Shown: in pieces, positions 24,301 through 27,300 of the stretch
Layout of the letters: the number at the start of each line of letters is the position of its first letter
Position numbering within the stretch: position 1 is the stretch's first letter
Assembly (NCBI RefSeq): GCF_902713425.1
Contig: NC_081214.1
Span: 11,008,641 to 11,072,640 of the forward strand
Direction of reading: 5' to 3'
DNA from: Acipenser ruthenus
Taxonomy: Eukaryota
DNA length: 64,000 bases
Program-made: the position numbers

Positions 24301-27300
24301 AGGTACGAGTGGAGAGAAATAATTGCATTGAACTGCCCTGCTTGTGTTCCGTGTATTCTGTGAACTGACGTGGAGCTTCATTTAAATGTCCCTTCATTCA
24401 AGGTTATAAAGTCCATGGAGAAGATGATTAAGGCCCCGAATGAAGCCATCCAGGAGGCAGGAGATAACTTTTTGGAAAAAGTGGAGGAGAATAAGAGGCT
24501 TGAGGAGAAAATAGCTCAACAGGTACATCTTCAGGAACTGCAAAGCATTTGTCTTGTGTTCTTTCTCCAAAGAAGAGTCCTACAAACCTGTGGCTATTGA
24601 ATCTTGTCACCTGAAGCCTTTTTGTGTCCCTCTGACTTGGATTGTTTAGGAAATGGTACATGTGGCACACAACCGTTCCTCCAATTGTCATGAGACTTGA
24701 ATATCGGATACTGTAGCTGTATTCAGGGTGTGTTCTTATCTATCAGTCTGTCACACTTATGAAGACATCTGGAAAAGAGCTCTGCAAATGTGTGTGTTTT
24801 TTTAAAAAATATATATTGGTAGTGGACAAAAAAATGGAAACACCTGGGTAAAATGAGGGACACCAAGTATATTGAAAGCAAGGGCTTCCACACAGGTGTG
24901 GCTCATGCATTTAAGCAAATAACATCCCAGCATGCTTAGGGTCATGTATAAAAATGCTGGACAGGCCTGATTGCCTATATGGCTAGCATGGCTGCAAGAG
25001 GAGACCTCGGTGACTTTGAAAGAGGGGTGGTTGGGTTGCGTTTGGCAGGAGCTTCAGTGACCAAGACCGCTCAACTTGCTGATGTTTCACGAGCAACGGT
25101 GTTTAAGGTAATGTCGGCATGGAACTCTGAGGGAGACATCAGCAAAGGGCAACAGTGGGCGGAAGCGCATACTCCAGGATCGTGATATCCGTGCATTAAT
25201 TCGAAGTGCAAGGCAAAATAGGCGAGCAACTGCAGATCAATTGACTGCAAATTTCAACCTGGGGCACAAGCAGCCAGTTTCATCAAAAAACAGTCCGCCG
25301 GGGGGCTCCCGAGTGGCACATCCAGTAAAAGCACTCGCTAGAGTGCAGGATGCGCTCTATAGCCTGGATGTCGCGAGTTCGAGTCCAGGCTATTCCACAG
25401 CCGAACGTGGACGGGAGCTCCCAGGGGCCGGTGCTCAATTGGCCGAGTGTTGCCTGGGGGGAGGGAGGGTTAGTTTGGCCAGGGTGTCCTCTGTAATTAT
25501 CCCCTGCACCTGGTAGCCATTGTTAAATTGGTACCAGGTGCAGGGTATTTAAGAGAAACAGTTAGTTTGCTCAAGACTGCTAAGAAGAAGGAGGCAGAAA
25601 GTTGTACTCTGCGTCCTGGCAGTCACAAGGGGAAAAGAAAAGGTGCTGTATTAAACCTGTGAAGTTTTTGTGTATTGTTTAGTGGGGAAACAGCCTAGCT
25701 GTCCCACTTGTAGTCAGGGTGTTCTTGTGTGTTAGTTAGTGCTCGTACAGAGCTAGGTGTTTATTTTGCATTTTGTTTTGATTTTGTTCTGCATTAAAAA
25801 TTAGCGCAACAGCGCGTTCAAACCTTCCATCTCTGTGTCTGGTCGGTATTTTAAAGGGCAAAACGAACCCGAGCCGCAAGGCTCGTTTACATATGGTGGC
25901 AGCGGTGCTCAGCCCTACAGACCAGCACAGTTAAAAAAAAATGATGGACATTGCAGAGCTGATCAGGACGTTAGAAAAGTCCACGGCGGAGATGCAGTAG
26001 GCAACGCGCAAGCAGAGCGAGTGCACCCAGCAGTGGAGGCAAGAGTGGGGGTTGCCCACATGGGAACAGGAGTTCCCCGTGTCACAGCTGGAGCTGGTGC
26101 TACAGAAGTTGGTGTGGCCGGCACTCCAGCAAGAGTCACTTGTACCAGATCCAGAGCCAGAGTTGCAAGCTCTGGAACCGGAGCTGCCTGCTCCGGAGAG
26201 AAAACCGGCAGTGCCCGAGCTGCAGCAGGAGCTGCAGCTGTCTGAGGAAGAGGAGCTAAAGTGCCCAGCTCCACCACAGCCCCGACCTCCACCCCAGCAA
26301 AGCAGTCCGGCGCAGGTGGGTACGGTCCCTTGCCCCGTGCTCGTGGACACCCTGCCGGAATGCATGGACCTCCCTGTGCTCGACCTAGTGCCCAGGTCGG
26401 GGCATCACCAGGCACAGTTGCTCACCTGGTCCCTTGCTCCGCTCCCCCTGAAACCTCAGACGTCACTACGCGGTCGTGTGACGTCACTGGCATTCCCCCT
26501 TCCTCCCGCTGTGTTCCCCCTGGAGTCTCAGAGGTCGCTGCGCCGGTCCCGTGGCTCACACCTCTGCCTGTCGCTGCACCGTCCAGGGTACCGGCCTACG
26601 CGTCGGTCGCCCCTAGCAAGCCGTTTGGGTCCCTCCTCGCCGGATCATGGTCCCTACCTTGAAGCGCCGGAGGAATCCACCCACCCTCAAGCCCACCCGA
26701 AGGATCGGGAGAAGGTGGAACTATGTGGACTCGAGGGTGGGTGGTTATGCTTTAGGGGAGGGGGTGGCCTTGGAATGGCCAGTCAGTGTTGCACACTTGG
26801 GGGGAGGATGTGTAGCACAGTGGGGATGGGACTGGAATCATCCCCGCAGTAAAATGTGTGGTTTCGTTTTAAGGCACATTTGTTTAATTGGTTTTGTTAA
26901 TTATTTTATTGTTTTTGTTAATTGCTTTATTAGTAATTATCCCCTGCACCTGGTAGCCATTGTTAAATTAGTACCAGGTGCAGGGTATTTAAGAGAAACA
27001 GTTAGTTTGCTCAAGACTGCTAAGAAGAAGGAGGCAGAAAGTTGTACTCTGCGTCCTTCTTCTTAGCAGTCTTGAGCAAACTAACTGTTTCTCTTAAATA
27101 TATAATACATTTCCTAATTTAATTCTGTACATGCCGTCAGTGGTCTTCAACTTTTTCATTATATTGAAGGCTTTAAGTTTGGATTTACAGCCTTGGCAGG
27201 GGGATTTTATGTTGTGGGGCATTTATTTTTAAGTTGATAGTAAATGTGTGAAATGGTTTCTCCTGCGGCTTAACTGACACATCATTTTTCACAGGAGGAG

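What the first reader, a model, noticed from the sequence alone, without database searches (positions are those of the whole stretch)
25488..27075. Decayed relative of the family-A protein gene inside a cassette flanked by 130-bp hairpin-containing direct repeats
The ORF starting at 25936 shares three things with family A. It has an A-run immediately upstream of the ATG. Its N-terminal motif MMDIAELIRTLEKSTAEMQ resembles MAEDAIKLRGWFLENAGLEAQ. It is followed by P/E-rich periodic sequence (EPELQALEPELPAPERKPAVPELQQELQ).

The region downstream of its stop parallels the family-A polypurine tract and LTR start: GGGGAGGGGGTGGCC...TTGGGGGGAGGATGTGTAGCACAGTGGGG versus AAGGGGGGAGGTGGCC...CAAGGGGGGGTATATGTGGCAAAGTGCCCC. 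Instead of LTRs it is bounded by two ~130-bp direct repeats, each of which can fold into a hairpin. A tRNA-derived SINE lies immediately upstream.

This suggests either an older lineage of the same element family or a host-like gene family from which the LTR element captured its ORF.
Basis: partly seen in the sequence, partly recalled or inferred. Interest (0 to 1): 0.5.

Follow-up and report, generated by a model that had tools for sequence, protein, structure and literature searches.

The report
Broken copy of sturgeon LTR retrotransposon
The "cassette with hairpin repeats" is a damaged, dead copy of a sturgeon-specific jumping gene that cannot copy itself; its two 125-base repeats are the surviving overlap of two truncated long terminal repeats, so it is an ordinary repeat element and not a new kind of structure.

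Summary
The sequence features are mostly real, but the structural reading is wrong. The window comes from a sturgeon (Acipenser) genome. Positions 25494-27100 hold one copy of a multi-copy non-autonomous LTR retrotransposon, here called family B.

Intact relatives in A. sinensis have:
- 470-540 bp LTRs (TG...CA) and 4-bp target duplications;
- a primer-binding site complementary to tRNA-Leu(AAG/TAG);
- one 250-330-codon ORF;
- two small stem-loops followed by a polypurine tract.

In the window copy the 5' LTR has lost its first ~120 bp and abuts a truncated SINE. The 3' LTR has lost its last ~280 bp and ends in a 53-bp snap-back inverted duplication. The 125-bp "direct repeat" is the part both LTR remnants keep: a U3 palindrome, a TATA box and the sequence just downstream. 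The ORF carries a nonsense codon and a terminal frameshift.

Family B and family A share a homologous 3' cis module and LTR ends (significant against shuffles). Both link to a Gmr1-like Ty3/Gypsy element in the same window. The proposed N-terminal protein motif match is no better than chance. No host-gene origin was found. Verdict: new member of a known kind, low interest.

The parts
25300..25493 (+). SINE fragment, truncated at its 3' side. It abuts the element but is not part of it.
   Evidence: A related SINE copy in L001 (2488-2200, minus strand) continues past ...CCAGGGTGTCCTC with about 200 more bases that are absent here. The junction at 25493/25494 is therefore a deletion junction. ARAGORN and Rfam make no tRNA call.
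25494..25891 (+). 5' LTR remnant, lacking the first ~120 nt of U3. It ends ...GTTTACA.
   Evidence: It aligns to the 5' LTR of the intact copy in L001 (3430-3951) from L001 ~3550 onward.
25501..25545 (.). U3 palindrome (CCCCTGCACCTGGTA ... TACCAGGTGCAGGG). This is the 'hairpin' of the first direct repeat.
   Evidence: The palindrome is conserved in every B LTR examined and is directly followed by a TATA-like box wherever the next bases were checked. It was found only in B LTR context in 172 kb. L002 has the compensated variant CCCGCACCTGGTA / TACCAGGTGCGGG.
25546..25553 (+). TATA-like box TATTTAAG, directly after the palindrome.
   Evidence: Function as a promoter element is inferred from position only.
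25590..25616 (.). Second short inverted repeat (GGAGGCAGA - 9 nt - TCTGCGTCC). It marks the end of the direct repeat.
25793..25798 (+). ATTAAA, a candidate polyadenylation signal, followed by a small GCGC...GCGC hairpin.
   Evidence: Read from the sequence. The role is inferred. The family-A LTR has AATAAA plus a hairpin at the equivalent place.
25894..25907 (+). Primer-binding site TGGTGGCAGCGGTG, 2 nt after the LTR end.
   Evidence: It is the exact complement of the last 14 nt of the tRNA-Leu(AAG/TAG) 3' fragment ATCCCACCGCTGCCACCA (PMC10591036). Position. It is conserved in L001, L002 and L005.
25941..26852 (+). Family-B ORF, disabled. There is a nonsense TAG at 25998-26000 (GAG in L001). 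A 1-nt deletion in the polypurine run bypasses the normal stop, which lies at nt 3-5 of the 3' LTR.
   Evidence: The best hit is P0001 at 91% identity, and there are 55 homologs.
26751..26808 (+). 3' cis module: G-tract (26751-26764), stem-loop 1 (26765-26781), stem-loop 2 (26785-26797) and polypurine tract (26798-26808).
   Evidence: Coordinates. It is homologous to family A. The two hairpins are predicted in all 9 copies, and stem 2 covaries.
26811..27057 (+). 3' LTR remnant. It starts TGTAGCACAGTGGGG and lacks the last ~280 nt. It contains the second copy of the palindrome (26941-26985), the TATA box (26986-26993) and IR2 (27030-27056).
   Evidence: Aligned to L001 4863-5400.
27048..27100 (.). 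Snap-back inverted duplication. It is the reverse complement of 26986-27038, which extends the native 9-bp IR2 stem to 53 bp.
   Evidence: I2: 53-nt arms, 98% complementary, 9-nt loop. It is absent from the 5' copy and from all other LTRs. The sub-threshold miRNA hits are an artefact of this hairpin.

Best explanation
WHAT IT IS. The locus is one rearranged, inactive copy of a sturgeon-specific non-autonomous LTR retrotransposon, family B.

CANONICAL ELEMENT (about 1.8-2 kb)
- LTRs of 470-540 bp with TG...CA ends.
- The LTR has a U3 region with a conserved palindrome directly followed by a TATA box, a downstream short inverted repeat, and an ATTAAA signal.
- A primer-binding site for tRNA-Leu lies 2 nt after the 5' LTR.
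- A single ORF runs up to and a few bases into the 3' LTR.
- Two short stem-loops and a polypurine tract precede the 3' LTR.
- Insertion makes a 4-bp target duplication.

THE PROTEIN. The ORF encodes no reverse transcriptase, integrase or protease. It is predicted to be one long N-terminal helix, a second short helix, and a proline/glutamate-rich disordered tail.

HOW IT MOVES (inferred). The element must be reverse-transcribed and integrated by enzymes of an autonomous element. The most likely source is a Gmr1-like Ty3/Gypsy element of the kind present in this window. Family A and one B subfamily share that element's LTR end and primer-binding site.

HOW THE WINDOW COPY WAS DAMAGED
- Its outer LTR ends were lost.
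- On the left, a deletion joins a 3'-truncated SINE to LTR position ~120, just before the palindrome.
- On the right, the LTR breaks exactly at the end of the short inverted repeat. There the strand folded back and copied itself for 44 more bases.

SHOWN VERSUS INFERRED. Shown: the anatomy, the homology to intact LTR copies, the truncation, and the cis-module homology with A and Gypsy. Inferred: trans-mobilisation, promoter and poly(A) roles, the function of the ORF, and the mechanism and timing of the truncations.
For: INTACT RELATIVES
- L001 has LTRs at 3430-3951 and 4863-5400 (94.4% identical), with a 4-bp target duplication ATAG, TA plus a primer-binding site, an intact 288-aa ORF and a polypurine tract.
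- L003 has LTRs 99.6% identical with target duplication ATAT. L004 has LTRs 97.65% identical with target duplication GCGT.
- L008 also has full LTRs.

THE WINDOW COPY
- It aligns to L001 only from LTR position ~121 of the 5' LTR to position ~247 of the 3' LTR.
- The SINE is 3'-truncated at the junction.
- The fold-back is I2.
- The window TAG codon is GAG in L001.

FAMILY SIZE AND CONTENT
- 55 homologs were found, all Acipenser, with no retroviral Pfam domains.
- A profile search of 1.84 billion representatives found 167 hits. The 10 whose source was checked are all from A. sinensis.
- Pfam finds nothing in the protein.
- AlphaFold predicts helices at residues 3-34 and 46-57 only, with the rest at low confidence.
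- Pairwise dN/dS between copies is 0.45-0.82. For example, L001 vs L005 has pS 0.51 vs pN 0.31.

LINKS TO FAMILY A AND GYPSY
- 3' module against family A: z = 8-10, 0/300 shuffles; BLAST E down to 1e-9.
- Two hairpins are predicted in 9/9 copies, with compensatory changes in stem 2.
- LTR end plus primer-binding site against the Gypsy element: L004 z = 8.0, A1 z = 7.6, A2 z = 6.4, all 0/1000 shuffles.
- The Gypsy element is Gmr1-like: its gag has a SCAN domain (E = 7e-18) and integrase lies upstream of reverse transcriptase (PMC3424704).
- The primer-binding site is complementary to tRNA-Leu(AAG/TAG).
Against: - The candidate's own subfamily does not share its primer-binding site or LTR end with the Gypsy element in the window (572/1000 shuffles reach the score). 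Its autonomous partner is therefore not identified.
- dN/dS is only moderately below 1. The copies were found through annotated proteins, which biases the sample toward open ORFs.
- A second copy, L007, is also bounded by a ~113-nt repeat with similar end points. 'Random decay' is therefore not a complete account of how such forms arise.
- No sturgeon genome could be searched at DNA level, so the ratio of full to truncated copies is unknown.
Confidence: 0.85

Rival explanations
1. The copy was inserted already truncated. A linear cDNA lost both outer ends, by nuclease attack or hairpin processing at the palindrome and at the short inverted repeat, or by snap-back during plus-strand synthesis. 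It was then captured at a chromosome break without integrase. This rivals post-insertion deletion only as the route to the same structure.
For: - Both outer LTR ends are missing while the interior is intact, and there is no target duplication.
- The right end is a snap-back starting exactly at the native 9-bp inverted repeat.
- An independent copy, L007, starts in the loop of the palindrome and ends 15 nt past the same inverted repeat.
- L002 and L006 have 3' LTRs that stop 15-25 nt after the TATA box.
Against: - The left junction joins a SINE that is itself truncated. This is more simply a genomic deletion.
- The sample is small (11 loci) and was selected for copies that keep the ORF.
- End points differ between copies.
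Confidence: 0.3
2. The copy is a processed-pseudogene-type retrocopy of the element's RNA made by LINE machinery, like the HERV-W pseudogenes. Its structure would be R-U5...U3-R, so the 125-bp repeat would be the R region.
For: - The 5' LTR lacks its upstream part and the 3' LTR lacks its downstream part, and they overlap.
- L007 shows a similar overlap of ~113 nt.
Against: - There is no poly(A) tail and no target duplication at either locus.
- The repeat includes the palindrome and TATA-like box, which should lie upstream of the transcription start.
- No AATAAA or ATTAAA lies before the repeat's 3' end; the only ATTAAA is ~180 nt further on.
- End points differ by 15-25 nt between the two copies.
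Confidence: 0.07
3. One reading: a distinct kind of mobile cassette or older element type, whose native termini are ~130-bp hairpin-bearing direct repeats (MITE-, foldback- or DIRS/Ngaro-like) rather than LTRs.
For: - The direct repeats are real and 99% identical, and they contain a palindrome.
- One more copy has a comparable arrangement.
Against: - Close relatives (90-93% identical) have full 520-540-bp LTRs with TG...CA ends, target duplications, a primer-binding site and a polypurine tract.
- In the window, the primer-binding site lies ~275 nt downstream of the repeat and the LTR start lies 123 nt upstream of the second repeat. The repeat is therefore internal to the LTRs.
- The palindrome never occurs outside B LTRs in 172 kb.
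- No tyrosine recombinase or transposase is present.
Confidence: 0.03
4. The ORF belongs to a host gene family from which the LTR elements captured their coding sequence.
For: - The protein has no retroelement domain.
- A weak hit links the family-A N-terminal profile to the start of complement C3d (E = 0.054 for the whole sequence, 0.62 for the domain).
Against: - Every B and A homolog whose source was shown is from sturgeon, and the copies examined are LTR-flanked. The source of most representatives was not looked up.
- The only host domains occur in chimeric gene models (P0168).
- The A-profile search of 5.8 billion proteins found no C3 or other host protein.
- Fold searches were uninformative.
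Confidence: 0.03

Closest known systems
Non-autonomous LTR retrotransposons that keep a non-enzymatic ORF (mammalian MaLR/THE1-type elements, plant BARE-2-type or LARD-like elements). This comparison is from general knowledge and was not tested here.
   Same: LTRs, primer-binding site, polypurine tract and target duplication. No reverse transcriptase, integrase or protease. A single ORF of unclear function. High copy number. Presumed mobilisation in trans.
   Different: It is restricted to sturgeons as far as the protein databases show. The ORF is a helix plus a P/E-rich disordered tail with no recognisable gag fold. The ORF overlaps the polypurine tract and ends inside the 3' LTR. It is much smaller than a LARD and larger than a TRIM.
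Family A in the same window (16258-20034 and 28331-31482).
   Same: Same overall plan: LTR, primer-binding site, A/T-rich leader, P/E-rich ORF that runs into the polypurine tract. Homologous G-tract, two stem-loops and polypurine tract. LTR start TGT(A/G)(A/G)CA. A palindrome followed by a TATA box in U3. A poly(A) signal followed by a hairpin.
   Different: Family A makes 5-bp target duplications and family B 4-bp. The primer-binding sites differ: A has GTGGTGTC..., the candidate has the tRNA-Leu(AAG/TAG) type. The palindrome sequences differ. The N-terminal domains are unrelated. The rest of the LTRs is not alignable. A's ORF is about twice as long.
Gmr1-like Ty3/Gypsy elements, whose gag is the source of the vertebrate SCAN domain (PMC3424704).
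   Same: The copy in this window shares its LTR end plus primer-binding site with family A and with B subfamily L004. It is the best candidate for the helper lineage.
   Different: It is autonomous: gag with SCAN, a zinc knuckle, protease, integrase and reverse transcriptase. The candidate has none of these. The candidate's own subfamily has a different primer-binding site.
HERV-W processed pseudogenes (LINE-mediated retrocopies with R-U5...U3-R structure). This comparison is from general knowledge.
   Same: A 5'-truncated 5' LTR, a 3'-truncated 3' LTR, and a short shared segment.
   Different: There is no poly(A) tail and no target duplication, and the shared segment includes the TATA-like box.

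Membership tests
LTR retrotransposon (structural definition) | Two long terminal direct repeats with TG...CA ends | tested here: met
   Met for the family: L001 (522/538 bp), L003 (~490 bp) and L004 (468 bp), with ends TGTA(G/A)CAC...(T/C)ACA. In the window copy only remnants survive (25494-25891 and 26811-27057). Its 3' LTR start TGTAGCAC and 5' LTR end TTTACA are present.
LTR retrotransposon (structural definition) | Short target-site duplication flanking the LTRs | tested here: met
   Family: ATAG (L001), ATAT (L003), GCGT (L004), all 4 bp. There is none at the window copy, because both outer ends are lost.
LTR retrotransposon (structural definition) | tRNA primer-binding site just after the 5' LTR and polypurine tract just before the 3' LTR | tested here: met
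   Primer-binding site at 25894-25907, complementary to the 3' 14 nt of tRNA-Leu(AAG/TAG). Polypurine tract TGGGGGGAGGA at 26798-26808, 2 nt before the LTR start.
Non-autonomous LTR retrotransposon | No reverse transcriptase, integrase or protease coding capacity | tested here: met
   Pfam finds no family in the candidate protein. The precomputed Pfam column of 55 homologs shows only host domains, in chimeric models. The internal region is ~920 bp, all taken up by one ORF.
Non-autonomous LTR retrotransposon | Mobilised in trans by an autonomous partner with matching cis signals | tested here: inconclusive
   Family A and B subfamily L004 match the LTR end plus primer-binding site of the Gmr1-like Gypsy element (0/1000 shuffles). 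The candidate's subfamily does not. Mobilisation itself cannot be tested with these tools.
TRIM / LARD (named classes of non-autonomous LTR elements) | TRIM: under ~1 kb with 100-250-bp LTRs and no ORF. LARD: several kb of non-coding interior. | tested here: not met
   The element is ~1.8-2 kb with ~500-bp LTRs and a 250-330-codon ORF. The class definitions come from general knowledge.
Ty3/Gypsy, Gmr1-like clade | Reverse transcriptase/integrase phylogeny and the protease-integrase-reverse transcriptase domain order | not testable with these tools
   The candidate has no pol. Only its cis-sequence affinity could be examined.
MITE or foldback element ('the 130-bp repeat is a common unrelated MITE') | The repeat occurs on its own, dispersed, outside the element | tested here: not met
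   There are only two copies in the 64-kb window. In 172 kb of window plus loci, every instance lies inside a family-B LTR next to a TATA-like box. A genome-wide count was not possible.
DIRS/Ngaro-type elements with split or inverted repeats | Tyrosine recombinase gene, no target duplication, split direct repeats | tested here: not met
   No recombinase domain is present. Intact copies have ordinary LTRs and 4-bp duplications.
LINE-mediated processed retrocopy of an LTR-element RNA (HERV-W type) | Starts at the transcription start, ends at the poly(A) site with an A-tail, flanked by a target duplication | tested here: not met
   There is no A-tail and no duplication at the window or L007 copy. 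The shared segment includes the TATA-like box. Transcript ends were not mapped.
Family A protein family | Detectable protein homology to the family-A ORF, including its N-terminal three-helix domain | tested here: not met
   BLASTP finds nothing. Shuffle tests are not significant. hhalign of N-terminal profiles gives P = 0.088. hhalign of C-terminal profiles matches only W-x-F-K/R-GGGG, which is encoded by the shared cis module. The two homolog lists share no protein.

The most novel reading that the evidence does not exclude
The family-B (and family-A) ORF may be a lineage-specific, non-capsid 'gag substitute'. This would be a helix plus a disordered P/E-rich protein, kept under selection, that lets these small elements get their RNA packaged and copied by Gmr1-like Gypsy machinery. 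In addition, the U3 palindrome and the downstream inverted repeat may be hot spots where replication intermediates break or snap back. That would produce a recurrent class of copies bounded by short hairpin-bearing repeats, inserted without integrase.
Probability: 0.15. Interest if true: 0.5.

Novelty: new member of a known kind. Interest (0 to 1): 0.2.

Why it matters
Mainly as a correction. An apparently odd 'hairpin-repeat cassette' turns out to be a truncated LTR element, so it should not be carried forward as a new structure.

There is modest value for sturgeon genome annotation. Families A and B are abundant. At least 167 representative B clusters and at least 111 A-related proteins are annotated as hypothetical genes, often fused to real genes in chimeric models. 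They should be masked as repeats.

Three further points may interest transposon specialists, but none is surprising in kind:
- the shared, structurally covarying module before the polypurine tract;
- the palindrome-plus-TATA promoter layout;
- the clustering of truncation points at inverted repeats.

Tried and rejected
- **LTR body and leader against family A.** The reconstructed candidate LTR plus leader gave no significant local alignment against the A LTRs (z = 0.6-1.4). Only short colinear patches appear. Plain blastn of the locus against the window finds only itself.
- **N-terminus of B against the start of the Gypsy gag** (MDRNALAELLEAL...). It looked similar by eye but is not significant: 264/2000 and 1709/2000 shuffles, hhalign P = 0.16.
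- **Origin of the family-A N-terminal domain.**
  - The match to the second half of the SCAN-like gag domain is weak (BLASTP E = 0.001 in a single comparison; 1/2000 shuffles; hhalign P = 0.005).
  - A rival weak match goes to the start of complement C3d (E = 0.054).
  - Pfam finds nothing.
  - The profile search finds only sturgeon proteins. The origin is left unresolved.
- **P0168, a B-like protein with a SCAN domain.** It is a spliced chimeric gene model that joins a B fragment to a separate Gypsy sequence several kb away in the same locus. It is not an ancestral fusion.
- **Rfam.** The only matches are sub-threshold miRNA-model hits on the artificial 53-bp hairpin. They are an artefact.
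- **PDB sequence search with the B profile.** Nothing was found.
- **Formal pair counting on the MAFFT alignment of the 3' module.** This was abandoned because indels put the stems out of register. Each copy was folded separately instead.
- **A tRNA-Leu gene to check the primer-binding site directly.** None is present in the window or loci. A published tRNA fragment sequence was used instead.
- **Literature.** No paper describing these sturgeon elements was found.
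Full report
**Source and setting**

The window is vertebrate DNA dense with transposons. Every database relative of the proteins discussed here whose source was shown comes from Acipenser sinensis or A. 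ruthenus, so the window is from a sturgeon genome. The finding lies between a Tc1-like transposase fragment with a SINE on the left and unique sequence on the right.

**Checking the observation**

Two direct repeats of 125 nt (25493-25617 and 26933-27057) differ at one base. No such match is expected by chance. Each holds an imperfect palindrome with 23-nt arms, 87% complementary.

An ORF begins at 25941 and stays in one frame to 26852, with one in-frame TAG at 25998. Nine A's precede it.

The stretch after the ORF does resemble the family-A polypurine tract and LTR start. The local alignment score is 45 against 18.0 +/- 2.7 for dinucleotide shuffles, with 0/300 reaching it. The second A copy gives z = 8.

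- 312 of 2000 shuffles score as well;
- the longer N-termini give 852/2000;
- a profile-profile comparison of the two families' N-termini gives P = 0.088;
- BLASTP of the whole proteins finds nothing.

**What the repeats are**

A protein search with the ORF returned 55 sturgeon proteins with no retroelement domains. The locus of the closest one (L001, 91% identical protein) shows the intact element:
- a 522-bp 5' LTR (TGTAGCACAGTGGGG...CATTTACA);
- TA, then the primer-binding site TGGTGGCAGCGG...;
- an open 288-codon ORF;
- a polypurine tract;
- a 538-bp 3' LTR, 94.4% identical to the first;
- a 4-bp target duplication, ATAG.

Two more subfamilies are equally complete. L003 has LTRs 99.6% identical with duplication ATAT. 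L004 has LTRs 97.65% identical with duplication GCGT. L008 also has full LTRs.

Aligned to L001, the window copy matches only from LTR position ~121 of the 5' LTR to position ~247 of the 3' LTR. The two 125-nt repeats are therefore the segment of the LTR that both remnants still contain. The true 3' LTR start (TGTAGCAC, 26811) lies 123 nt before the second repeat. The true 5' LTR end (TTTACA, 25891) lies 274 nt after the first.

**The two breakpoints**

On the left, the SINE stops at ...GGGTGTCCTC. A related copy in L001 continues for about 200 more bases. Its missing part is not found on the other side of the element. The junction is therefore a deletion that removed the SINE tail and the first ~120 nt of the LTR.

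On the right, the LTR contains a native short inverted repeat (GGAGGCAGA, 9 nt, TCTGCGTCC), which is present in both window copies and, slightly diverged, in other LTRs. In the 3' remnant the sequence turns back exactly at the end of this repeat. It then continues as the reverse complement of the preceding 44 bases, making 53-nt arms that are 98% complementary. This is a snap-back. The Rfam miRNA-model hits there are below threshold and reflect only the perfect hairpin.

**State of the ORF**

The TAG at 25998 is GAG in L001. In intact copies the ORF stops at a TAG formed by nt 3-5 of the 3' LTR. In the window, a 1-nt deletion in the polypurine run shifts the frame and adds 14 codons. The copy is dead.

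**The family and its protein**

A profile of 21 members searched against 1.84 billion representative proteins gave 167 hits. The ten whose source was checked are all from A. sinensis. Large hits are chimeric gene models with host domains. One, P0168, joins a B fragment to a separate Gypsy gag sequence elsewhere in the locus.

Pfam and a PDB sequence search find nothing. AlphaFold predicts a confident helix at residues 3-34, a shorter helix at 46-57, and a low-confidence remainder.

Pairwise dN/dS between seven copies is 0.45-0.82. This suggests some coding constraint in the active lineages, but the copies were found through annotated proteins, which favours open frames.

**Relation to family A and to an autonomous element**

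Family A consists of two copies in the window, 16258-20034 and 28331-31482. Each is an LTR element with one long P/E-rich ORF.

A and B share a 3' cis module: a G-tract, two 4-6-bp stem-loops and the polypurine tract, followed by an LTR start of TGT(A/G)(A/G)CA. All nine copies examined are predicted to form both hairpins. The second stem changes sequence while staying paired: AGUGU/ACACU, AGUGC/GCACU, UGUCUU/AAGACA and UGUGC/GCACA.

BLAST confirms the module for L002, L005 and L006 against A, with E down to 1e-9. L005 has a B-type ORF with an A-like module and LTR start, so it is an intermediate.

Three B subfamilies carry 30-nt tandem repeats 62-73% identical to A's 30-nt repeats. The repeat structure inflates those E-values.

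Both families place a palindrome directly before a TATA-like box in U3, and a poly(A) signal before a hairpin.

The families also differ:
- target duplication length is 5 bp in A and 4 bp in B;
- the primer-binding sites differ;
- the rest of the LTR is not alignable;
- the N-terminal domains are unrelated.

The minus strand of window ~973-5950 holds a Ty3/Gypsy element. Its gag contains a SCAN domain (E = 7e-18 after repairing a frameshift) and its integrase lies upstream of reverse transcriptase. That is the Gmr1-like arrangement. SCAN derives from such a gag (PMC3424704).

Its LTR end plus primer-binding site (CTTTGCCACA C GTGGTGTCAGA...) matches family A and B subfamily L004, with 0/1000 shuffles and z = 6.4-8.0. 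It does not match the candidate's own subfamily. The candidate's primer-binding site is instead the exact complement of the last 14 nt of tRNA-Leu(AAG/TAG).

A and B are therefore best read as sister lineages of small non-autonomous elements. They use the cis signals of Gmr1-like Gypsy elements and presumably those elements' enzymes. The partner of the candidate's own subfamily has not been found.

**How the truncated form arose**

This part is inference. Of the 11 copies examined:
- four have full LTRs on both sides (L001, L003, L004, L008);
- L010 probably does too, but an assembly gap interrupts its 3' LTR;
- four lack outer LTR parts at both ends: the window copy, L007 and L002, plus L006, which has no 5' LTR at all;
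- L009 has a truncated 3' LTR;
- L005 was not resolved.

L007 is an independent copy: it has different flanks and is only 88.6% identical to the window copy. It begins in the loop of the palindrome and ends 15 nt beyond the short inverted repeat, which gives it a ~113-nt terminal repeat. L002 and L006 have 3' LTRs that stop 15-25 nt after the TATA box.

The break points thus cluster at the two inverted repeats. This fits hairpin-provoked breakage or snap-back, either in the chromosome after insertion or in cDNA before an integrase-independent insertion.

A LINE-made retrocopy of the RNA is unlikely. There is no A-tail and no target duplication, and the shared segment contains the TATA-like box.

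**Verdict**

The structural interpretation is not supported, and the 'related lineage' idea is supported in modified form. The object is a new member of a known kind, a non-autonomous LTR retrotransposon family of sturgeons. The window copy is an inactive, doubly truncated example. Interest is low.

Noticed in passing
window 973-5950, minus strand: A Gmr1-like Ty3/Gypsy element. Its gag has a SCAN domain (E = 7e-18 after repairing one frameshift), followed by a zinc knuckle and protease, then integrase (3777-2128) upstream of reverse transcriptase (1515-973). Its 5' LTR end and primer-binding site match family A and B subfamily L004. It sits inside a LINE reverse-transcriptase fragment (~5950-6060).
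   Followed up: partly
window 1-296, plus strand: The 3' part of a third family-A-type LTR, ending CTTTGTGACA. It is nested in the pol region of the Gypsy element, and the window starts inside it.
   Followed up: no
window 29079-29320 (family-A ORF N-terminus) and relatives P0056-P0117: The family-A N-terminal ~70 residues give a confident three-helix model (pLDDT 82) with no fold match. There are weak, conflicting sequence hits to the second half of the SCAN-like gag domain and to the start of complement C3d (E = 0.054). The profile search finds only sturgeon proteins. The origin is unresolved.
   Followed up: yes
proteins P0082, P0089, P0056, P0062, P0074, P0117 (A. sinensis): Some family-A relatives carry CCHC-type zinc knuckles (for example CMACGVQGHTVAIC and CLLCDQDHLFANC). 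This suggests the A-type ORFs descend from a gag with a nucleocapsid part.
   Followed up: no
window 26765-26797, 19367-19395, 30828-30856; L001-L006: Two adjacent short stem-loops lie immediately upstream of the polypurine tract in all nine A and B copies. The second stem shows compensatory changes. It is probably a conserved cis element for plus-strand priming or RNA handling.
   Followed up: partly
L007 2513-4073: An independent family-B copy bounded by a ~113-nt repeat. Its 5' end lies in the loop of the U3 palindrome and its 3' end lies 15 nt past the short inverted repeat. There is no target duplication and no A-tail.
   Followed up: partly
L006 5772-5994 and 7001-7223: A family-B fragment (ORF plus partial 3' LTR, no 5' LTR) is flanked by a 223-bp duplication of non-element sequence that is 99% identical. 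The mechanism is unknown.
   Followed up: no
L003 1953-5987: A tandem LTR-internal-LTR-internal arrangement of a young B subfamily. Its LTRs are 99.6% identical, which suggests recent activity.
   Followed up: no
window 16470-16520 vs 19625-19690: The two LTRs of family-A copy A1 carry different U3 palindromes (GCTGGGATTCA...TGAATCCCAGC vs CAGTTGTACCGAGA...TCTCGGTACAACTG). Each is followed by a TATA-like box. The copy is either a recombinant or has had a palindrome swapped.
   Followed up: no
window 6332-6403 (+) and 6496-6569 (-): ARAGORN calls tRNA-Cys(GCA) and tRNA-Thr(CGT) here, close to the Gypsy 5' end. They could be real genes or SINE heads.
   Followed up: no
window 31880-32060: A tandem array of ~45-bp units (GGGGTAGCCAGGTTTTTGGACGGAGTGTGGC plus a G-run) lies just downstream of family-A copy A2.
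   Followed up: no
window 27290-27440: A possible host exon, with ...cacag|GAGGAGGAAATGAAAG...GAAAG|gtatac boundaries seen by eye. It encodes a charged helical peptide. If real, the element may lie in an intron.
   Followed up: no
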